A stretch of 64,000 nucleotides of DNA from NCBI RefSeq assembly GCF_050920415.1, contig NZ_CP169309.1. One strand, given 5' to 3'. A program made the position numbers and the translations under genes. This DNA is from Escherichia coli. GTDB taxonomy: Bacteria; Pseudomonadota; Gammaproteobacteria; Enterobacterales; Enterobacteriaceae. How positions within the stretch are numbered: the stretch's first letter is position 1; each line of letters opens with the position of its first letter. Below, piece by piece: positions 33,757-58,573 of this stretch. The notes beneath the pieces are model-generated. The model was not told the DNA's origin. It was given only the letters and a program-made list of their open reading frames with translations, and did no database searches.

Positions 33757-34085
33757 CAGTTCACCACCTGTTCAAACTCTGCGCTGAACTCAACACGCAG
33801 CATACTGACCCGCGACGACCATTTTGCGCAGGTCACCTTTATCTGCCGCCACTCATAAGGCGGCGTCCACAGAAAGGATTTCCAGCCCCCGTGCTCTTCC
33901 AGAAACGACTCCAGTACCGTGGCCTCCTCACGGGGGACAGAAAGCGTCACGCTGTACGTTTTCAGGTTGGCATTCAGCCCGGCAGGCGCTCGCTGAGAAT
34001 AGCCATCACCAAAGCGCACCTTTCTTACAGAAGGGACCGAAGCCACATCCATACCGGGTTTCACTTTCCAGCGGAAGGTCTTCAT
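33756..34085 (-). CDS. M: Minor tail protein M
   Basis: 109-aa ORF, lambda gpM length and order. Confidence 0.9.
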   Translation of the reverse strand: MKTFRWKVKPGMDVASVPSVRKVRFGDGYSQRAPAGLNANLKTYSVTLSVPREEATVLESFLEEHGGWKSFLWTPPYEWRQIKVTCAKWSSRVSMLRVEFSAEFEQVVN

Positions 34086-36643
34086 CGTCCACCTCCGGAG
34101 AACAGGCCACCATCACGCATCTGTGTCTGAATTTCATCACGGGCACCCTTGCGGGCCATGTCATACACCGCCTTCAGAGCAGCCGGACCTATCTGCCCGT
34201 TCGTGCCGTCGTTGTTAATCACCACATGGTTATTCTGCTCAAACGTCCCGGACGCCTGCGACCGGCTGTCTGCCATGCTGCCCGGTGTACCGACATAACC
34301 GCCGGTGGCATAGCCGCGCATCAGCCGGTAAAGATTCCCCACGCCAATCCGGCTGGTTGCCTCCTTCGTGAAGACAAACTCACCACGGTGAACAATCCCC
34401 GCTGGCTCATATTTGCCGCCGGTTCCCGTAAATCCTCCGGTTGCAAAATGGAATTTCGCCGCAGCGGCCTGAATGGCTGTACCGCCTGACGCGGATGCGC
34501 CGCCACCAACAGCCCCGCCAATGGCGCTGCCGATACTCCCGACAATCCCCACCATTGCCTGCTTAAGCAGAATTTCTGTCATCATGGACAGCACGGAACG
34601 GGTGAAGCTGCGCCAGTTCTGCTCACTGCCGGTCAGCATCGCTGCCATATTCTGTGCAATACCATCAAAGGTCTGCGTGGCTGCACTTTTTACCTGCGAC
34701 ATACTGTCCGTGGCGCTCTCTTCCCACTCACTCCAGCCGGACTTCAGGCCTGCCATCCAGCTCCCGCGAAGCTGGTCTTCAGCCGCCCAGGTCTTTTTCT
34801 GCTCTGACATGACGTTATTCAGCGCCAGCGGATTATCGCCATACTGTTCCTTCAGGCGCTGTTCCGTGGCTTCCCGTTCTGCCGGCCGGTCAGTCAGCCC
34901 CCGGCTTTTCGCATCAATGGCGGCCCGTTTTGCCCGTTGCTGCTGTGCGAATTTATCCGCCTGCTGCGCCAGCGCGTTCAGGCGCTCCTGATACGTAACC
35001 TTGTCGCCAAGTGCAGCCAGCTGGCGTTTGTACTCCAGCGTCTCATCTTTATGCGCCAGCAGGGATTTCTCCTGTGCGGACAGCTGGCGACGTTGTGCCG
35101 CCTCCTCCAGTACCGCGAACTGACTTTCTGCCTTCCACAAATCCCGGCGCTGCTGGCTGATTTTCTCATTTGCTCCGGCATGCTTCTCCAGCGTCCGGAG
35201 TTCTGCCTGAAGCGTCAGCAGGGCAGCATGAGCACTGTCTTCCTGACGATCGCCCGCAGACACCTTCACGCCGGACTGTTTCGGCTTTTTCAGCGTCGCT
35301 TCATAATCCTTTTTCGCCGCCGCCATCAGCGTGTTGTAATCCGCCTGCAGGATTTTCCCGTCTTTCAGTGCCTTGTTCAGTTCTTCCTGACGGGCGGTAT
35401 ATTTCTCCAGCGGCGTCTGCAGCCGTTCGTAAGCCTTCTGCGCCTCTTCGGTATATTTCAGCCGTGACGCTTCGGTATCGCTCTGCTGCTGCGCATTTTT
35501 GTCCTGTTGAGTCTGCTGCTCAGCCTTCTTTCGGGCGGCTTCAAGCGCAAGACGGGCCTTTTCACGATCATCCCAGTAACGCGCCCGCGCTTCATCGTTA
35601 ACAAAATAATCATCCTTGCGCAGATTCCAGATGTCGTCTGCTTTCTTAAACGCAGCCTCTGCCTTAATCAGCATCTCCTGCGCGGTATCAGGACGACCAA
35701 TATCCAGCACCGCATCCCACATGGATTTGAAGGCCCGCGCAGTCCTGTCTGCCCAGGTCTCCAGCGTGCCCATGTTCTCTTTCAGGCGGCGGGTCTGGTC
35801 ATCAAACCCTTTCGTTGCGGCCTCGTTCGCCGCCTGCAATGCCCCGGCTTCATCGCCGGAACGCTGCAACTGAGCAACATACGCAATCTGCTCCGCCGTC
35901 ACGTTATGGAACTGGCGTGCCATCGCCGTCAGCCCCGACGTCGGGTCTGTGGTCAGCTTCCCGAAGGCTTCAGCGACCTTGTCCACCTCCACGCCGGATG
36001 CAGAGGAGAAACGCGCCACACTCTGGCTGATGGACGCAATCTGAGCCTCACCGCTTACCCCCGCCTTAACCAGTGCGCTGAGTGACTCGCTGGTCTGGTT
36101 AAACGTCAGCCCTGCCGCCTGCCCGGCTCTGGACAGGACCAGCATGCGATCTGCCGTCAGACCCGACTGATTGCCGGAAAGGACCAGCGTTTTGTTGAAA
36201 TCGGACAGGGTTGAGTTGCCCTGATACCAGGCATACGCCAGCGCACCGGTCGCCACCGCCAGCGAGGTGGCCCCCACCATCGGCAGGGTGATCGCACCGG
36301 CAAGCCCCCTGAACATGGGGATCATCCCGCCGAAGGAGTCCTTCACCTGCCCCCCCTGTTGCAGCAGGATCAGCCACGGACTTTGCCCGCCTGCAAGCTG
36401 CGTGGCCACGTCGGTGAACTGTGCAGGCAGCATACGCATGGCGGCTTTATACTGCCCGACGGAAATCCCCGCTTTCTGTGCAGCCAGCGCCTGTCGGCTC
36501 AGCGACTGTTCAACGACTGCCGCTGTTTTTTTCGCATCACTTTCCGTACCGGAAAAATGACGCCTGACTCTGGCCATCTGCTCGTCAAATCTGGCCGCAT
36601 CCAGACTTAAATCAACGACCAGATCGCCTACCGGTTCAGCCAT
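34082..36643 (-). CDS. H: Tail tape measure protein H
   Basis: 853-aa ORF (lambda gpH length), coiled-coil rich, Gly-rich C-terminal region. Confidence 0.93.
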   Translation of the reverse strand: MAEPVGDLVVDLSLDAARFDEQMARVRRHFSGTESDAKKTAAVVEQSLSRQALAAQKAGISVGQYKAAMRMLPAQFTDVATQLAGGQSPWLILLQQGGQVKDSFGGMIPMFRGLAGAITLPMVGATSLAVATGALAYAWYQGNSTLSDFNKTLVLSGNQSGLTADRMLVLSRAGQAAGLTFNQTSESLSALVKAGVSGEAQIASISQSVARFSSASGVEVDKVAEAFGKLTTDPTSGLTAMARQFHNVTAEQIAYVAQLQRSGDEAGALQAANEAATKGFDDQTRRLKENMGTLETWADRTARAFKSMWDAVLDIGRPDTAQEMLIKAEAAFKKADDIWNLRKDDYFVNDEARARYWDDREKARLALEAARKKAEQQTQQDKNAQQQSDTEASRLKYTEEAQKAYERLQTPLEKYTARQEELNKALKDGKILQADYNTLMAAAKKDYEATLKKPKQSGVKVSAGDRQEDSAHAALLTLQAELRTLEKHAGANEKISQQRRDLWKAESQFAVLEEAAQRRQLSAQEKSLLAHKDETLEYKRQLAALGDKVTYQERLNALAQQADKFAQQQRAKRAAIDAKSRGLTDRPAEREATEQRLKEQYGDNPLALNNVMSEQKKTWAAEDQLRGSWMAGLKSGWSEWEESATDSMSQVKSAATQTFDGIAQNMAAMLTGSEQNWRSFTRSVLSMMTEILLKQAMVGIVGSIGSAIGGAVGGGASASGGTAIQAAAAKFHFATGGFTGTGGKYEPAGIVHRGEFVFTKEATSRIGVGNLYRLMRGYATGGYVGTPGSMADSRSQASGTFEQNNHVVINNDGTNGQIGPAALKAVYDMARKGARDEIQTQMRDGGLFSGGGR

Positions 36644-48929: not shown

Positions 48930-49223
48930 ATGAAAAAAATGCTACTCGCTACTGCGCTGGCCCTGCTTATTACAGGATGTGCTCAACAGACGTTTACTGT
49001 TCAAAACAAACAGACAGCAGTAGCACCAAAGGAAACCATCACCCATCATTTCTTCGTTTCTGGAATTGGGCAGAAGAAAACTGTCGATGCAGCCAAAATT
49101 TGTGGCGGCGCAGAAAATGTTGTTAAAACAGAAACCCAGCAAACATTCGTAAATGGATTGCTCGGTTTTATTACTTTAGGCATTTATACTCCGCTGGAAG
49201 CGCGTGTGTATTGCTCAAAATAA
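48930..49223 (+). CDS. bor: Bor lipoprotein (serum-resistance, lysogenic conversion)
   Basis: 97-aa ORF near-identical to lambda Bor (MKKMLLATALALLITGCAQQTFTVQNK...), lipobox LITGC; opposite to late genes as in lambda. Confidence 0.95.
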   Translation: MKKMLLATALALLITGCAQQTFTVQNKQTAVAPKETITHHFFVSGIGQKKTVDAAKICGGAENVVKTETQQTFVNGLLGFITLGIYTPLEARVYCSK

Positions 49224-49254
49224 TTGCATGAGTTGCCCATCGATATGGTCAGCT

Positions 49255-49716
49255 CTATCTGCACTGCTCATTAATATACTTCTGGGTTCCTTCCAGTTGT
49301 TTTTGCATAGTGATCAGCCTCTCTCTGAGGGTGAAATAATCCCGTTCAGCGGTGTCTGCCAGTCGGGGGGAGGCTGCATTATCCACGCCGGAGGCGGTGG
49401 TGGCTTCACGCACTGACTGACAGACTGCTTTGATGTGCAACCGACGACGACCAGCGGCAACATCATCACGCAGAGCATCATTTTCAGCTTTCGCATCAGC
49501 TAACTCCTTCGTGTATTTTGCATCGAGCGCAGCAACATCACGCTGACGCATCTGCATGTCAGTAATTGCCGCGTTCGCCAGCTTCAGTTCTCTGGCATTT
49601 TTGTCGCGCTGGGCTTTGTAGGTAATGGCGTTATCACGGTAATGATTAACAGCCCATGACAGGCAGACGATGATGCAGATAACCAGAGCGGAGATAATCG
49701 CGGTTACTCTGTTCAT
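49255..49716 (-). CDS. Rz: Spanin inner-membrane subunit Rz
   Basis: Matches lambda Rz from [28 protein letters not shown]...; 153 aa. Confidence 0.93.
49314..49496 (-). CDS. Rz1: Spanin outer-membrane lipoprotein Rz1 (embedded in Rz, +1 frame)
   Basis: 60-aa ORF matching lambda Rz1 ([59 protein letters not shown]). Confidence 0.9.
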
Positions 49717-50210
49717 TGCTGACCCCACAAACAGATTTCACGCTCAATCTCACGACGAGTCATGAGACCTTTCCATTGCTTACCGCCAGCATATGTCCAG
49801 CGACGTAGCTGATCACATGCGCCTTTGATATCGCCCTGGTTTATTTTGCGAAGAAGCGTCGATGTTCTGAAATTGCCAGCACCCACGTTGTAAACGAATG
49901 AGTAAAGAGCGCCGCGCATTGTTTCCGGTATATCGACTTTGATGTACGGGTTAATTTGTCTGGCGACCGTGGCAAGGTCTTTATTCAGGAGGGCTTTGCA
50001 TTCTGCTTTGGTATACGTTTTACCGAGCATGATGTCTTTTCCTGTATGCCCGTGACATACAGTCCATACACCAACAATATCTTTGTATGGTATGTAGCTG
50101 ACACCTTCCAGACCATCGTTACCACTTGGGCCAGTGATTAACACTGATGCTATAGCAATTGCTCCGCCACCAATAGCAGCAGCAACGGCTTTTCGTAATG
50201 ATGGAGGCAT
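49713..50210 (-). CDS. R: SAR endolysin (phage 21 R-type lysozyme)
   Basis: 165-aa ORF with N-terminal signal-anchor-release segment ([20 protein letters not shown]) and lysozyme core; rrrD / R21-like. Confidence 0.92.
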
Positions 50211-50425
50211 TATTCACCTCTCGCAGCCTTGCGCTTATCTTCTTTAATCTTGAAATAAAGGTTTGTCAGGTACGTCAGCAGGCCAAATACCAGGCTACCC
50301 AGCACACCTATTGCTGCCCACTGTGAGGGCGTGACTTTATCGAGCAGCTGTAAAAACCAGTAACCGGCACTACCTGCTGAGGTGCCATAGGCGACACCCG
50401 TTGTTAACTTATCCATGGATTTCAT
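50210..50425 (-). CDS. S: Class II holin / pinholin (phage 21 S-type)
   Basis: 71-aa ORF with two TM segments and dual-start N-terminus; essD / S21-like. Confidence 0.9.
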
Positions 50426-50998
50426 AACCCCACCTCGCAGACAAAGCGGGTGTAAATTGAGGGAATACTACGAAACGTAACAGACTCGGAGTCAGTGAAT
50501 AACTCAGGTATTGGGTTATCAGCTAATATCGAGACTCAAAAAATGGAAAAACCCGCTCGACGGCGGGTTTAAGCTGTGTGACGAAGTAACCACTCTTAAC
50601 AGCATAACCAATTTTTTACGTACGTAAACCACTAAATGATATTTGCGAGAATGCTACCGAGTATTGAAAACACCACTACAAATACATAAGCAAATCTCAA
50701 CAAATAACCAACAAATAATTTCCAGTGTTATTTTTAGCCGATTTAAATTGAACCTTCAAATTATAGAGCACTTATAAATAACAGCCGTTAATATAAATTG
50801 GCTAATAGATTTATTTTTATTCAGCCAAGAGCTATAAATAGGATTCGATAGAAAAAAGTTCAGATAAAAATAGAGATCTACTTCACAAATCAAACGAGAA
50901 ACCAAAACTTACATCTTGAAATAATCACATTGATTAGATGAATATTTATCGCGCAGTGACATCATTTTTTAATAATAGTTCAAAAAAAAGGGCTCACG

Positions 50999-54159: not shown

Positions 54160-54189
54160 GCTTCACCTCCGCAGAGGTCAAACGCTGGA

Positions 54190-54277
54190 TGCAAAAAATC
54201 GCAGGTGCATCTCTGCATCTGTGAAGGGAGAAGAGAGTTTGGATTGTATGTGCGCATAAACGTCCCCGTTTAGCGCA
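54190..54277. repeat. 88-bp direct repeat, copy 1 (upstream of ybcN)
   Basis: About 93% identical to 56124-56211; contains hairpin GCGCATAAACG-TCCCC-GTTTAGCGC. Confidence 0.85.
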
Positions 54278-54353: not shown

Positions 54354-54863
54354 TTAGTCTGCCAAGTCTTCCTCAGTCGCAACTGGGTAATTCCAAATAT
54401 CAAAAAAAGCTATAGCCTCCTGCCATTTGCTCCATAAGTTATCAAGTACTTGTGTAGGTTCCGTACTTTTAAAAACAGAATCAGCCGCATCACCGTTATG
54501 AACTTCCTCGTACAGTTCCATTATTAGCAGATTAACAAAGTACTGTTTCAACATTAATGCCTGATTACCTTCTTTCTGCTGGCTATCCTGCTTGATGAGC
54601 TCCATCGCCCGTACTAGGCACCTGATGATATCCGCTGCATCATTAACGCTCCATTCAGATCCGCGCTTATCTTTAGCTGATGAATTGGCTCTCTCAGCGC
54701 AAGCCTTTAAAGACTCATAAAGGTAAACTCTATTTTGTAGCTGCAGCGCTTTTTTTGACGTGCACCAACTTGCAAGCGCCGACCCCGCTGCGGCTAATGT
54801 GCCAAACGCAGAAATGCCTGCTGCTATTGCACTTAAGTCGGCACTGTCAAAGTTCCACATCAT
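54354..54863 (-). CDS. Hypothetical 169-aa protein with hydrophobic N-terminal segment
   Basis: Low-GC ORF; N-terminal hydrophobic stretch LSAIAAGISAFGTLAAAGSALASW; no recognised domain. Confidence 0.5.
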   Translation of the reverse strand: MMWNFDSADLSAIAAGISAFGTLAAAGSALASWCTSKKALQLQNRVYLYESLKACAERANSSAKDKRGSEWSVNDAADIIRCLVRAMELIKQDSQQKEGNQALMLKQYFVNLLIMELYEEVHNGDAADSVFKSTEPTQVLDNLWSKWQEAIAFFDIWNYPVATEEDLAD

Positions 54864-55098: not shown

Positions 55099-55707
55099 TT
55101 ATTGCAACAGATTCTGACGGAAATATGGTAACACACGACTCCACTTATCATCCTGCCACGGTTGGAATTTTACATGCGCCGTTTCTCTGGCAAGGATTTC
55201 TCGCGCCCTGTTGAGTATCCGAGGATATTCTTGTTCGATTGAAGTGAATCTACCTGCTTCGCGATGCTCTGCGACCTGAAGAAGGGGCGTAACGTTCTGG
55301 CAGGCGGTTAACATCGTATCACTTGCTCGCCATAACCAGGCGAGTGTGCAAAGTTCGTTATCAGTGAATTGTTTTGTGATTGGGGATTGTTGAACTTCTC
55401 GATCGAGAATATCCAGAACCCAGCGGCGGAATTCTTTGGCCACAGGAGTACGAGCAAACATGGCGATCAAATGGGCTCCGCGAAGGCTAAATACTCGAGA
55501 CTCCTGCATTCCACGAGGGGTGGTCACTTTGACCACCCTTGTCATCATATCTGTGAATTCATCTGAGTGCCGAGAGTAAATGCGCTGAACTGCTTTATCG
55601 TCCGCATATTCCAGTGCTAAACCAACTTCAGTGGCAGTAAGCCAAATTCTGTTATTGTGGCAAATCGGGGTAAACGTCGTTTTGTGGAATGCTAATTGAG
55701 TAGTCAT
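55099..55707 (-). CDS. Bro-N domain phage antirepressor-like protein
   Basis: 202-aa ORF; N-terminal region (HNNRIWLTATEVGLALEY...RVFSLRGAHLIAM) resembles Bro-N. Confidence 0.7.
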   Translation of the reverse strand: MTTQLAFHKTTFTPICHNNRIWLTATEVGLALEYADDKAVQRIYSRHSDEFTDMMTRVVKVTTPRGMQESRVFSLRGAHLIAMFARTPVAKEFRRWVLDILDREVQQSPITKQFTDNELCTLAWLWRASDTMLTACQNVTPLLQVAEHREAGRFTSIEQEYPRILNRAREILARETAHVKFQPWQDDKWSRVLPYFRQNLLQ

Positions 55708-56123
55708 AGTATCACCTCATCAGGTTAACCATCACCACCAACGACGCCAATCGACTGGTGGTGAACTGTGTAAGGTTGGCGTAACCGGCTACTCAAACCC
55801 GGCGCTTCCGAAGAAGCCCTCACACAGCCCACCATAATTTGGGCATAGCCGTGCTTAGCGCACAAAAAAACCGCTTAACGCGGTATGCGTTGAGTAGTAT
55901 CCCGGGACGCCAATCCCGTGTGCCGATTTTGCGGCAACGCACAGAATATAGCGCCGGATAAATCATGTCGTCAACCCCAGTAAATGGACACCATGATGAT
56001 CACAGCCATAGCTGCTACAACAGTTACAACTACCTCAGGCCAAAACATAACGATTTCCATATCACCTTTAGCCGCCAGACGAATAGAGACTCCCAATTCT
56101 GGCTGTCGAAGTAAAACACCGAA

Positions 56124-56211
56124 TGTAAAAAATCGTAGGTGCATTTCTGCATCTGTGAATGGAGATGAGAGTTTGGATTGTGTGTGCGCATAAACGTCCC
56201 CGTTTAGCGCA
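56124..56211. repeat. 88-bp direct repeat, copy 2 (upstream of the Bro-N module)
   Basis: Near-identical to 54190-54277 with 6 mismatches. Confidence 0.85.
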
Positions 56212-56519
56212 ACCCCACCACCGGGTGTTCAGGCCGACAGTAACTATATTATTCCCTACTGATTTTTGAAAATCAAAGGTCTTTATACGTCACACGAGAG
56301 CAAATATTTCCGAAGAAGAAACCTTTCGCCTTGAAAGGATAAAGAGTTCATTTCATAAATTGAAATATTCAATAAGAATATTGCAAAAAATGAAATTATT
56401 TACTAGCGAGTCTATCTAACTGATAATTATGAAGATTGTAAGCGGTAGCAATCACCCGCATACACATTGAACAGGATTTAATACAAAACGTCTTAAATTG
56501 TCCGTAAGGAATAGCACGA

Positions 56520-58022
56520 ATGACTCAAACTCCTCTATTACTTGCAATCATATTTTTATTGGTTGTTCTTGTTCTTTATATAGCTGCAATCAAACGCATC
56601 AAAAAAATACAATTAGAATTAAGTGATAGCAATCAAAAAAATGAAGAATACAAATCTCGCTTTGCAGATTATTTTAATGTAGAAGAAGAATGTAAGAAGC
56701 TTATTGAGAAAACAGAGCAAGAATGCTCCATAATAAAAGAAGAATCCCTAAAAGTAAAAGAAAATGCCAATAATGAACTAACAAACACCATTGAAAAAAT
56801 GGATGGTATCAATAAACAAATCCAAGAGCTAAGAAGAACTTATAAAGAGAAGAAAGAAATATATGATAAACTAGTAAGGCAAATTTCTATTTATTCAGAA
56901 GATGTTGAGCTAGCCGAACTAGGATTTTACGAACCTCATTTTAATTTTGAAGATTCAGAGCAATTTAAAAACAAAATAAAATCCATCAGGGATGAACAGA
57001 AATTAATGCTGCGGGATAAAACCCACTCTGGCGCAGTATATTGTACAACCCAATGGACTGTTGAAGGCTCTCGAGCAGAGGGTAAAAAAATGACAGACAG
57101 AAATATCAGGCTAACTACTAGAGCATTTAATAATGAATGTGATGCTGCAATTAGCAATTGCACGTGGAAAAACATCACTAAAATGGAAGAACGCATCACA
57201 AAGGCATTTGAGGCCATAAATAAACTAAACGAGCAAAATCACATATATATAAACACTAAATACCTCAATAAAAAACTTGAGGAATTGTGGCTTACCCATG
57301 AATATCGTGAGCAAAAACAGAAAGAAAAAGAAGAACAGGCAGAAATAAGGGCACAAATGAGAGAGGAGGAGCGTGCACAACGAGAAATAGAAAAGGCCAT
57401 GCAAGACGCAGAGGCAGAAGAGCGCCGTTATAAAAAAGCAATTGAAGCTGCAAGAAAGGAAATGGAAAAAGTTACTGGTGACATGAAGCAGCGCCTCGAA
57501 AATCGCATTGCCGAACTAGAACAGAGTTTGTCGCAGGCTGAATCAAAGCATCAAAGAGCATTATCCATGGCACAACAAACCAAACAAGGTCATGTTTATA
57601 TTATTTCGAACATAGGTTCTTTTGGGGAGAATGTTTATAAAATAGGCATGACACGACGTCTTGATCCGCAAGACCGTGTAAATGAGCTCGGTGATGCATC
57701 TGTTCCTTTTATTTTTGATGTACATGCCATGATTTATTCGGAGGACGCTCCATCATTAGAAAAAAAACTACATGATGTCTTCGATAAAAAGAGAGTCAAT
57801 CTTGTAAATCGTAGAAAAGAGTTTTTCTATGTTACTCTGGATGAGATCAAAGAAGCTGTTAAAAAACACTCTGATTCAGAAATTGAATTTATTGAGACAG
57901 CAGTCGCAAAAGACTTTAATGAGTCATTGGCTATTCGTAATCATGAAAATAAAAAAAGTGACAACAGCAACTCATCAATTATACCTGAGCGAAAAACCCC
58001 AGAGTTTGCAGATGCAATTTAA
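56520..58022 (+). CDS. Membrane-anchored coiled-coil protein with C-terminal T5orf172 (GIY-YIG-like) domain; DUF4041-like architecture
   Basis: 500-aa ORF, AAGGA 8 nt before the ATG; N-terminal TM helix (LLLAIIFLLVVLVLYIAAI), long K/E/Q-rich coiled-coil, C-terminal block VYIISNIGSFGENVYKIGMTRRLDPQDRVNELGDASVPF...LEKKLHDVFDKKRVN. Opposite strand to all neighbours. Confidence 0.7.
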   Translation: MTQTPLLLAIIFLLVVLVLYIAAIKRIKKIQLELSDSNQKNEEYKSRFADYFNVEEECKKLIEKTEQECSIIKEESLKVKENANNELTNTIEKMDGINKQIQELRRTYKEKKEIYDKLVRQISIYSEDVELAELGFYEPHFNFEDSEQFKNKIKSIRDEQKLMLRDKTHSGAVYCTTQWTVEGSRAEGKKMTDRNIRLTTRAFNNECDAAISNCTWKNITKMEERITKAFEAINKLNEQNHIYINTKYLNKKLEELWLTHEYREQKQKEKEEQAEIRAQMREEERAQREIEKAMQDAEAEERRYKKAIEAARKEMEKVTGDMKQRLENRIAELEQSLSQAESKHQRALSMAQQTKQGHVYIISNIGSFGENVYKIGMTRRLDPQDRVNELGDASVPFIFDVHAMIYSEDAPSLEKKLHDVFDKKRVNLVNRRKEFFYVTLDEIKEAVKKHSDSEIEFIETAVAKDFNESLAIRNHENKKSDNSNSSIIPERKTPEFADAI

Positions 58023-58270
58023 TTAATTTGTAGTAGCAATAAAGCAGGCATCGTTGAGAATATTTTGTCAGCGATGCTTACTTCTCTAACAAAAACGGTG
58101 ATTACCAACGAACTAACGGACTTCAGGTAATCATAAGACAAATGGAACGACTCTCCGGTGATTAGATCCCTGCAATAACAGTAATTTTCTACTAACTGAA
58201 AAATCTTTAACTGCCGCTCCTATTTCTAAGCTGACTGCTAGATTACATGGTGTGTTACCGATGAAAACCG

Positions 58271-58573
58271 TCACAGCAAGTTTAAGTTCATATCTCCATA
58301 CACTGCCAACACTCGTTTCATCGCGGCACTCTGGCGACACTCCTTGAAAATCAGATTCGTGCTCACCTTTCCTTCCCGTTCTTCCCTGGTAGCGAACCGG
58401 TAATACACCGTTCGCCAGACCTTACCATCAACGACCAAGATTCCTGCCCGTGCCATTTTAGCCGCAGCCTGATTTATACTGGTTACTGTTGCGCCTGTTA
58501 CCGCAGCAACGTCCTGCGCACAGAAGCTCTTATGCGTCCCCAGGTAATGAATAATTGCCTCTTTGCCCGTCAT
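58271..58573 (-). CDS. ren: Ren
   Basis: 100-aa ORF matching lambda Ren (MTGKEAIIHYLGTH.SFCA.DVAA.TGATVTSINQAAAKMARAG...). Confidence 0.9.
   Translation of the reverse strand: MTGKEAIIHYLGTHKSFCAQDVAAVTGATVTSINQAAAKMARAGILVVDGKVWRTVYYRFATREEREGKVSTNLIFKECRQSAAMKRVLAVYGDMNLNLL

What the first reader, a model, noticed from the sequence alone, without database searches (positions are those of the whole stretch)
56212..58270. Opposite-strand AT-rich moron at the ren/nin junction: membrane-anchored coiled-coil protein with T5orf172 (GIY-YIG-like) C-terminus, candidate phage-exclusion or abortive-infection gene
Every early-right gene from cro to Q is on the minus strand except this 500-aa gene, which is on the plus strand with its own AT-rich upstream region and a good SD, and is far more AT-rich than the flanking lambda-like DNA. 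It combines one N-terminal TM helix, about 300 aa of coiled-coil, and a C-terminal block matching the T5orf172/MUG113 GIY-YIG-like nuclease family. A membrane-tethered putative nuclease expressed independently of the phage operon at a known moron site is the profile of a prophage-borne defence or superinfection-exclusion determinant. I cannot place this architecture in any named defence system from memory.
Basis: partly seen in the sequence, partly recalled or inferred. Interest (0 to 1): 0.85.

Follow-up and report, generated by a model that had tools for sequence, protein, structure and literature searches.

The report
SNIPE (PD-λ-1) phage-defence nuclease gene
This is a real prophage-borne anti-phage gene, but it is a base-for-base copy of the already named and characterised defence system PD-λ-1/SNIPE, a membrane-anchored nuclease that cuts incoming phage DNA during injection, so it is a correct call and not a discovery.

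Summary
Window 56520-58022 (+) encodes a 500-aa protein at 35% GC in ~50% GC lambdoid DNA, and it is the only plus-strand gene between cro and Q. It has an N-terminal TM helix, a DUF4041 domain and a T5orf172/GIY-YIG C-terminus.

It is not unnamed. It matches PADLOC PD-Lambda-1 full-length (E=1.9e-198). Both published PD-λ-1 cloning primers match the window exactly and give the same 1,847-bp amplicon as the ECOR26 clone. All nine residues named in the mechanistic paper sit at the same positions. Window 56000-58400 is 2401/2401 identical to Escherichia phage PhiR26_1 (PV340555.1), where the gene is annotated "PD-lambda-1".

PD-λ-1 was found by Vassallo et al. 2022 and renamed SNIPE by Saxton et al. 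(Nature 2026). It is a constitutive inner-membrane GIY-YIG nuclease that associates with ManYZ and the phage tape measure and cleaves phage DNA during injection. It gives direct defence, not abortive infection.

Minor additions: the ren/ninB junction is a cargo hotspot, and the carrier prophage's own tape measure is 99% λ gpH.

Novelty: already known. Interest is low.

The parts
56212..58304 (.). AT-rich SNIPE cassette: the segment absent from sibling phages, bounded by the ylcH-like repeat on the left and a breakpoint inside the 3' end of ren on the right
   Evidence: GC trough. Left breakpoint at 56211/56212 from the alignment with K-12 ylcH and repeat copy 1. Right breakpoint near 58304 from the alignment of ren 3' ends of PhiR34_1, PhiR68_2, PhiR30_1 and K-12.
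56238..58084 (+). Segment matching the experimentally validated PD-lambda-1 clone (ECOR26 QOXL01000020 48998-50844)
   Evidence: Primers PD-lambda-1-R and -F (Table S8) match exactly and uniquely at 56238-56261 (+) and 58067-58084 (-). The amplicon is 1,847 bp with 282/62-nt offsets around the ORF, identical to the published coordinates. Window 56000-58400 is 2401/2401 identical to PhiR26_1.
56238..56519 (+). Upstream region that must contain the native promoter. The only candidate found is TTTACT-17-GATAAT at 56399-56427.
   Evidence: The published clone carries only these 282 nt upstream, in the promoterless vector pCV1, and confers defence 'under its native promoter'. The -35/-10 match is 9/12 only, and the number of such sites in the region is not above shuffles. 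The exact promoter is therefore inferred, not shown.
56506..56510 (+). Shine-Dalgarno AAGGA, 9 nt before the ATG
   Evidence: Read directly from the sequence.
56520..58022 (+). SNIPE / PD-lambda-1 coding sequence, 500 aa plus stop
   Evidence: ORF list. PADLOC PD-Lambda-1 E=1.9e-198, covering 1-485 of 491. phrog_1847 E=7e-196. 100% identical to PhiR26_1 XSB42081.1, annotated 'PD-lambda-1'. RefSeq WP_000195116.1.
56529..56591 (+). Single N-terminal transmembrane helix (about aa 4-24)
   Evidence: Hydropathy maximum 3.37. Helical in the model. Published PhoA-LacZalpha topology: N-terminus periplasmic, remainder cytoplasmic.
56592..56915 (+). N-terminal long helix (about aa 25-132), poorly conserved 'adapter' region
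   Evidence: AF2 helix 4-132. No conservation in alignments A2 and A3. The paper assigns ManYZ association to the N-terminal region.
56955..57254 (+). Globular DUF4041-containing domain (about aa 146-245)
   Evidence: AF2 pLDDT 84-94 with mixed alpha/beta. Pfam DUF4041 at 198-252. Published role: DNA binding and tape-measure contact.
57255..57584 (+). Long helical linker (about aa 246-355)
   Evidence: AF2 helices 246-315 and 321-355. The gain-of-defence mutations L253H, W257R, E264K, K305N, I308V and T319A map here, and the wild-type residues match.
57588..57869 (+). GIY-YIG (T5orf172/MUG113) nuclease domain (aa 357-450). The catalytic Glu414 codon GAA is at 57759-57761.
58046..58079 (+). Stable hairpin 24 nt after the stop codon, the probable terminator of the gene
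   Evidence: RNA fold -24.6 kcal/mol, z=-4.19, 0/200 shuffles as stable. It lies inside the cloned fragment. Terminator function is inferred.

Best explanation
[quoted passage not shown] It is carried as an independently transcribed, horizontally acquired cassette at the ren/ninB junction of an apparently intact lambdoid prophage. That prophage occupies the chromosomal locus where K-12 carries cryptic DLP12.

The following is shown by published experiments on a clone that matches this DNA. The protein is made constitutively from its own promoter. [quoted passage not shown] Anchoring keeps the nuclease away from the chromosome, because the TM-less protein cuts host DNA and is toxic. The protein sits next to the mannose permease ManYZ, which lambda uses for DNA entry. 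During infection it also contacts the phage tape measure protein. The DUF4041 domain binds DNA and the tape measure, and the GIY-YIG domain (catalytic E414) cleaves the phage genome while it is being injected. The cell survives, so this is direct defence. Phage DNA already inside the cell, such as an induced prophage, is not attacked.

The following is inferred here. In this lysogen the gene serves as a superinfection-exclusion-type moron. It protects the lysogen and its prophage against heteroimmune lambda-like siphoviruses without interfering with the prophage's own induction.
For: Family: PADLOC PD-Lambda-1 full-length, E=1.9e-198 and 7e-195. Pfam DUF4041 + T5orf172/MUG113 at the coordinates published for PD-lambda-1, 198-252/357-449/373-449 here against 197-252/357-448/373-449.

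Identity with the tested clone: both cloning primers match exactly, with the same amplicon length and offsets. Nine of nine residues named in the SNIPE paper are at identical numbering, chance about 3e-11. 2401/2401 nt identical to phage PhiR26_1, whose gene is annotated PD-lambda-1.

Mechanism: Saxton et al., bioRxiv 10.1101/2025.11.03.685801 and Nature 2026 PMC13190303. Discovery: Vassallo et al. 2022, PMC9519451.

Context: cassette at a variable junction. Homologues in other temperate phages lie in lysogeny or moron positions. Homologues validated in S. thermophilus.
Against: Nothing contradicts the assignment. The limits are as follows.

1. I could not retrieve the ECOR26 contig itself. 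Internal identity to the clone is therefore inferred from the primers, the fragment length, the nine residues, and PhiR26_1. The ECOR26 origin of PhiR26_1 is itself inferred from its name.

2. Expression and defence have not been demonstrated in this native prophage context. The lambda-red deletion primers visible in Vassallo Table S8 are for PD-T4-2 and PD-T4-9, not PD-lambda-1.

3. The promoter position is not established. The consensus scan is not above chance.

4. How the membrane-bound nuclease is kept inactive towards the host chromosome remains unresolved in the literature.
Confidence: 0.95

Rival explanations
1. Abortive-infection toxin: the nuclease is unleashed on host DNA after infection and kills the cell.
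For: A TM-less version is highly toxic and cuts host DNA. Many prophage morons are Abi systems, and 12 of the 21 systems in Vassallo et al. were Abi-like.
Against: The SNIPE paper calls PD-lambda-1 a direct defence system. Infected cells survive, labelled phage DNA is degraded during injection, and full-length SNIPE causes no toxicity even when DNA is tethered to the membrane.
Confidence: 0.02
2. A selfish T5orf172-type homing endonuclease gene that has inserted at a recombination boundary, with no benefit to the lysogen.
For: T5orf172 genes in phages are often homing endonucleases found at boundaries of genetic exchange (title and abstract of PMC10448857). The cassette's right breakpoint lies inside a conserved gene, ren.
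Against: The protein has a TM anchor and long helices in place of a sequence-specific DNA-binding module. The whole 500-aa architecture matches the defence family profile. The defence phenotype and its dependence on TM, DUF4041 and E414 are published. The sibling ren genes are intact, without a recognisable empty target site.
Confidence: 0.02
3. The gene is intact but silent or irrelevant in this lysogen, for example repressed because it is AT-rich foreign DNA or by antisense transcription, so that it is only a latent defence.
For: Native-context activity was not tested in the papers read. The gene is convergent with the pR operon, which must read through it in antisense to reach the nin genes and Q. 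It is 35% GC.
Against: With only 282 nt of native upstream DNA in a promoterless low-copy vector, it is expressed constitutively and protects strongly. In a repressed lysogen pR is off, so antisense interference should be minimal. The exact sequence is kept intact on more than 1,000 public contigs and in 130 of 5,426 complete E. coli genomes.
Confidence: 0.08
4. A phage replication, partition or recombination accessory, as some database annotations suggest ('chromosome segregation ATPase', 'replication', 'ParA').
For: Such names occur on homologues in GenBank records. The gene lies next to the replication genes O, P and ren.
Against: There is no ATPase or partition domain in Pfam, NCBIfam or PHROGs; the only weak hits come from coiled-coil composition. 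Sibling phages with the same O, P and ren genes lack the gene. SNIPE does not change lambda burst after induction.
Confidence: 0.01

Closest known systems
SNIPE / PD-lambda-1 (E. coli ECOR26; Vassallo et al. 2022; Saxton et al., Nature 2026)
   Same: Everything tested: gene length, primer sites, domain coordinates, nine named residues, full-length PADLOC profile, and 100% DNA identity to the copy annotated PD-lambda-1 in phage PhiR26_1.
   Different: No difference in the gene was found. The surrounding prophage is a close relative of PhiR26_1, not an identical copy: 99.5% over window 39-64 kb, and 97.5% over 75% of window 14-39 kb.
HK97 gp15 and other membrane-located superinfection-exclusion morons of siphoviruses
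   Same: Prophage-encoded inner-membrane proteins that block the genome-entry step in a tape-measure-dependent way, as cited in the SNIPE discussion.
   Different: gp15 is not reported there to have a nuclease domain; it blocks injection by an unknown mechanism. SNIPE destroys the DNA with a GIY-YIG nuclease. I did not test sequence similarity.
Zorya and Kiwa (membrane-associated defence systems)
   Same: They act at the membrane at or near the injection site and target phage DNA.
   Different: They are multi-protein systems thought to sense envelope perturbation. They use other nuclease or DNA-binding modules and have no DUF4041 or T5orf172. SNIPE is a single protein positioned through ManYZ and the tape measure.
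PD-T4-3 and other cytoplasmic GIY-YIG defence nucleases (Eco29kI-like)
T5orf172/MUG113 homing-type endonucleases of phages, and SLX1
   Different: They lack the membrane anchor, the long helices and DUF4041, and their biological roles differ (homing; Holliday-junction processing).
PADLOC candidate PDC-S57
   Same: Its profiles match the nuclease domain, residues 351-476, at E=1.7e-18 and 9.4e-11.
   Different: The match covers the nuclease domain only (profiles of 212-245 positions), so this is a different architecture.

Membership tests
SNIPE / PD-lambda-1 | Full-length similarity to the family profile | tested here: met
   PADLOC PDLC03976 E=1.9e-198, protein 1-485 on profile 1-485/491. PDLC03977 E=7e-195.
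SNIPE / PD-lambda-1 | N-terminal membrane anchor (single TM, N-out) | tested here: met
   One hydrophobic segment, residues ~4-24, KD mean up to 3.37, helical in the model. Topology itself was not testable here; it is published for the matching clone.
SNIPE / PD-lambda-1 | Central DUF4041 domain | tested here: met
   PF13250 at 198-252, E=1.2e-19, within a confident globular domain at 146-245.
SNIPE / PD-lambda-1 | C-terminal GIY-YIG nuclease with catalytic Glu (E414) | tested here: met
SNIPE / PD-lambda-1 | Identity with the experimentally tested allele | tested here: met
   Exact primer matches, same 1,847-bp amplicon and offsets. 9/9 named residues. 2401/2401 nt identical to the PhiR26_1 copy annotated PD-lambda-1. 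The ECOR26 contig itself was not available.
SNIPE / PD-lambda-1 | Protects against lambda and other siphoviruses; cleaves DNA during injection; associates with ManYZ and the tape measure | not testable with these tools
   Published for the matching clone. Not shown in the native lysogen.
GIY-YIG nuclease superfamily | Three-stranded sheet flanked by helices, with GIY...YIG-like motifs and conserved Arg, Glu and Asn | tested here: met
Abortive-infection systems | Infected cell dies or arrests; protection lost at high MOI | not testable with these tools
   The literature describes PD-lambda-1 as direct defence, so I do not file it here.
Homing endonuclease genes (T5orf172 type) | Free-standing nuclease with a sequence-specific DNA-binding module, inserted next to or within its target gene, and no membrane anchor | tested here: not met
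   A TM anchor is present. No DNA-binding domains beyond DUF4041 were found in Pfam. The architecture is the defence family's. Insertion at a breakpoint inside ren is the only shared trait.
Lambdoid 'moron' (independently transcribed cargo in a prophage) | Own promoter and terminator, deviant composition, presence/absence polymorphism between otherwise collinear phages | tested here: met
   Composition. Opposite strand. Absent from PhiR30_1, PhiR34_1, PhiR68_2 and K-12 DLP12, which carry other cargo at the same junction. Terminator-like hairpin. The promoter is only localised to 282 nt through the published clone.

The most novel reading that the evidence does not exclude
In nature SNIPE may be mainly a weapon of lambdoid phages against their own kin. 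The carrier prophage has a tape measure 99% identical to lambda gpH, with A304 intact, which is the injection apparatus SNIPE targets best. The lysogen would therefore exclude heteroimmune siblings that share the tail module. The gene's convergent orientation would let N-antiterminated pR transcription silence it during induction. Neither point is discussed in the text of the papers I could read.
Probability: 0.3. Interest if true: 0.3.

Novelty: already known. Interest (0 to 1): 0.1.

Why it matters
As a discovery it does not matter. The gene, its name, its phenotype and its mechanism are published (Nat Microbiol 2022; Nature 2026), and a phage genome in GenBank carrying a 100%-identical copy already annotates it as PD-lambda-1.

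It does matter as a calibration point. A tool-less reading of raw sequence correctly recognised a membrane-tethered GIY-YIG defence nuclease at a moron site.

Most public annotations still call this protein only 'DUF4041 domain-containing protein', and some homologues are mislabelled 'chromosome segregation ATPase' or 'ParA'. Transferring the SNIPE name is a useful annotation fix.

The window also shows the gene in its natural setting, which the mechanistic papers I read do not describe in their text. It sits in a cargo hotspot at the ren/ninB junction of an apparently intact prophage at the DLP12 locus, and that prophage's own tape measure is lambda-like.

Tried and rejected

2. A sequence search of the PDB found no relative: best E=0.078, on low-complexity helix.

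3. NCBIfam gave only sub-threshold coiled-coil hits, i.e. no curated family.

4. The promoter consensus scan found 12 sites against 7.9±2.9 expected. That is not evidence, so the candidate at 56399-56427 remains a guess.

5. The minus-strand terminator-like site at 56338-56322 does not fold better than shuffles, z=-0.38. I rejected it as a tR2-like terminator.

6. PADLOC hits for the neighbouring genes (ant-like, 169-aa hypothetical, ren): none. There is no sign of a multi-gene system.

7. The weak LmuB hit (E=0.032) comes from coiled-coil composition and I disregarded it.

8. A cluster look-up did not return the accession RCP76574.1. The link to ECOR26 therefore had to be made through primers and coordinates.

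9. Python access to locus L003 failed because the file was not synced. I did the comparison with DNA alignment instead.

10. Brenes & Laub 2025 (Cell Host Microbe), the source of the PhiR phages, is not in the held library.

Full report
OBSERVATION

The protein has a single strongly hydrophobic N-terminal segment. Pfam finds DUF4041 at 198-252, T5orf172 at 357-449 and MUG113 at 373-449. An AlphaFold2 model (7-sequence alignment, mean pLDDT 71.5) gives helix 4-132, a confident globular alpha/beta domain at about 146-245 that contains DUF4041, helix 246-355, and an alpha/beta domain at 357-450.

WHAT IT IS

The PADLOC library returns a full-length match to PD-Lambda-1 (E=1.9e-198, residues 1-485 on profile positions 1-485 of 491). 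PHROGs returns phrog_1847, of unknown function. PD-lambda-1 is one of the 21 systems recovered by functional selection from E. coli isolates by Vassallo et al. 2022 (PMC9519451).

The supplementary tables of that paper give:
- the source: ECOR26, contig QOXL01000020, protein RCP76574.1, ORF 49060-50562, cloned fragment 48998-50844;
- the HHpred domain coordinates: DUF4041 197-252, T5orf172 357-448, MUG113 373-449;
- the cloning primers.

The genomic parts of both primers occur exactly once each in the window, at 56238-56261 (+) and 58067-58084 (-). They define an 1,847-bp amplicon with 282 nt before the ATG and 62 nt after the stop, exactly the published geometry. All nine residues that the mechanistic paper names by number (E414, N250, L253, W257, E264, K305, I308, T319, E223) are found at those positions, with chance about 3e-11.

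GenBank PV340555.1, Escherichia phage PhiR26_1 (48.2 kb, propagated on MG1655), encodes a 100% identical protein annotated 'PD-lambda-1'. Window 56000-58400 is identical to it at 2401 of 2401 positions. I infer from the name that PhiR26_1 is the ECOR26 prophage. I could not fetch the ECOR26 contig itself.

HOW IT WORKS

This section rests on published work on the matching clone, not on tests done here. Saxton et al. (bioRxiv 10.1101/2025.11.03.685801; Nature 2026, PMC13190303) renamed PD-lambda-1 SNIPE. They showed the following:
- Topology: N-terminus periplasmic, one TM helix, and DUF4041 plus the GIY-YIG domain in the cytoplasm.
- E414A and deletion of DUF4041 both abolish defence.
- The TM-less protein localises to the nucleoid, makes double-strand breaks and is toxic, and E414A relieves this.
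- SNIPE expressed from its native promoter is uniformly membrane-localised, independent of infection.
- Adsorption is unaffected, but labelled lambda DNA is degraded during injection.
- An induced lambda prophage replicates and yields normal titres.
- Defence against lambda depends strongly on ManYZ. SNIPE is proximity-labelled with ManYZ before infection and with the tape measure during infection.
- Most BASEL siphoviruses are weakly targeted independently of ManYZ.
- Mutations in DUF4041 and the following helix raise defence against Bas14-18, in a manner dependent on the tape measure sequence.

It is therefore a direct-defence nuclease that separates self from non-self by location. It is not an abortive-infection system. 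A homologue also protects S. thermophilus.

INDEPENDENT CHECKS DONE HERE

I aligned seven homologues from temperate phages: Klebsiella, Salmonella (ES18 gp19), Clostridioides (CDMH1), Lactobacillus (PLE3), Streptococcus (EJ-1 ORF3) and Corynebacterium (Poushou). They share 33-53% identity with the window protein. The invariant residues are G357, V359, Y360, K374-I375-G376, T378-R379-R380, E414, H418, N427, N430, R432 and E434. The N-terminal 130 residues are unalignable. This matches the paper's description of a conserved nuclease and a variable 'adapter'.

CONTEXT

The window holds chromosomal DNA (the cusA/cusS/nfrA/nfrB side) up to about 17.9 kb. From there an apparently complete lambdoid prophage runs off the right end. 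It is 99.5% identical to PhiR26_1 over 39-64 kb and 97.5% identical over 75% of 14-39 kb. It occupies the same chromosomal locus as K-12's cryptic DLP12 and shares its nin/Q/lysis genes.

The ren/ninB junction is a cargo hotspot:
- PhiR30_1 carries an acyltransferase and a lipoprotein there.
- PhiR34_1, PhiR68_2 and K-12 DLP12 carry emrE, ybcK, ybcL and ybcM.
- This phage and PhiR26_1 carry SNIPE plus an isrK/C4-ant block.

The SNIPE cassette runs from 56212, where homology to the ylcH upstream region resumes, to about 58304, inside the last ~11 codons of ren. A stable hairpin 24 nt after the stop codon (58046-58079; z=-4.2) is a plausible terminator. The promoter is localised only to 56238-56519, by the published clone in a promoterless vector. 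The consensus scan is not informative.

The segment is present at >=80% coverage in 130 of 5,426 complete E. coli genomes. The exact protein occurs on more than 1,000 public contigs, named only 'DUF4041 domain-containing protein'. In Gram-positive temperate phages the homologues lie between the repressor and integrase genes. In ES18 the homologue is a 'possible moron' next to the tape measure gene. Both placements are consistent with expression in lysogens.

WHAT THIS WINDOW ADDS

The prophage's own tape measure (34082-36643, minus strand) is 847/853 identical to lambda gpH and keeps A304. It thus belongs to the ManYZ-dependent tape measure clade that SNIPE hits hardest. The natural role is therefore probably exclusion of heteroimmune kin. 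This is an inference, and the text of the papers I could read does not discuss it. The gene is also convergent with the pR operon, which must traverse it in antisense to reach nin and Q. Whether this down-regulates SNIPE on induction is untested.

VERDICT

The novelty class is 'already known'. The finding's value is as an annotation transfer and as a check that the first-stage reading was sound.

Noticed in passing
window 55754-55839 (-) and 55864-55936 (-): Rfam gathering-threshold hits to C4 antisense RNA (RF01695, 74.8 bits) and isrK Hfq-binding RNA (RF01394, 58.7 bits). They lie directly upstream of an anti-repressor-like gene at 55099-55707 (-) (phrog_245/5060 'Ant'; annotated Rha / P22AR C-terminal). 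From memory this resembles a P1 immI or Gifsy-1 isrK-type regulatory module. It is embedded in the same cargo region as SNIPE.
   Followed up: partly
window 54174-54277 and 56108-56211: A 104-nt direct repeat at 89% identity. It corresponds to the upstream region and 5' part of the small ylcH gene of K-12 DLP12. The two copies bracket the 1.9-kb isrK/C4-ant-169aa block, and copy 2 abuts the SNIPE cassette. This suggests stepwise cargo insertion by recombination at this sequence. Copy 2 starts a 53-aa ORF (56030-56191, -) that has no PHROG family.
   Followed up: partly
window 34082-36643 (-): The prophage's tape measure protein is 847/853 identical to lambda gpH and retains A304. The phage that carries SNIPE therefore has the same injection protein that SNIPE recognises.
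   Followed up: partly
window ~58271-58304 (3' end of ren, - strand): The last ~11 codons of ren differ from those of sibling phages, because the cassette breakpoint lies inside ren. Ren here ends ...AVYGDMNLNLL. Whether the altered C-terminus affects Ren function is unknown.
   Followed up: no
ren/ninB junction in L002 (K-12 DLP12), L004 (PhiR30_1), L005 (PhiR68_2), L006 (PhiR34_1): Otherwise collinear phages carry three different cargo sets at this junction: emrE-ybcK-ybcL-ybcM; acyltransferase + outer-membrane lipoprotein; SNIPE + isrK/C4-ant. The PhiR30_1 and emrE-type cargos were not examined for defence functions.
   Followed up: partly
window 54354-54863 (-): A 169-aa protein of unknown function (phrog_1779, E=1e-101) with no PADLOC match, lying between the ant-like gene and ylcH/ninB.
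   Followed up: no
window 1-~17900: The chromosomal flank (cusA, cusS, nfrA, nfrB) matches the best complete E. coli genomes at only 97.1% over 97% of 22 kb, in 3 joined pieces spanning ~28-31 kb of those records. The prophage part is 99.5-100% identical to E. coli phage DNA. UniRef lists the protein under unclassified Escherichia (9ESCH). The host may be a divergent Escherichia lineage.
   Followed up: no
L008 (Salmonella phage ES18) 2659-4188: The SNIPE homologue gp19 of ES18, annotated 'possible moron', lies two genes upstream of the phage's tape measure gene, with its own putative terminator. That is a striking position for a protein whose E. coli relative contacts tape measure proteins.
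   Followed up: no
public annotations of homologues: Homologues are variously annotated 'chromosome segregation ATPase', 'ParA', 'AAA-ATPase', 'helicase', 'putative regulatory protein' and 'replication'. Nothing in the domain searches on the window protein (Pfam, NCBIfam, PHROGs) supports any of these names.
   Followed up: partly
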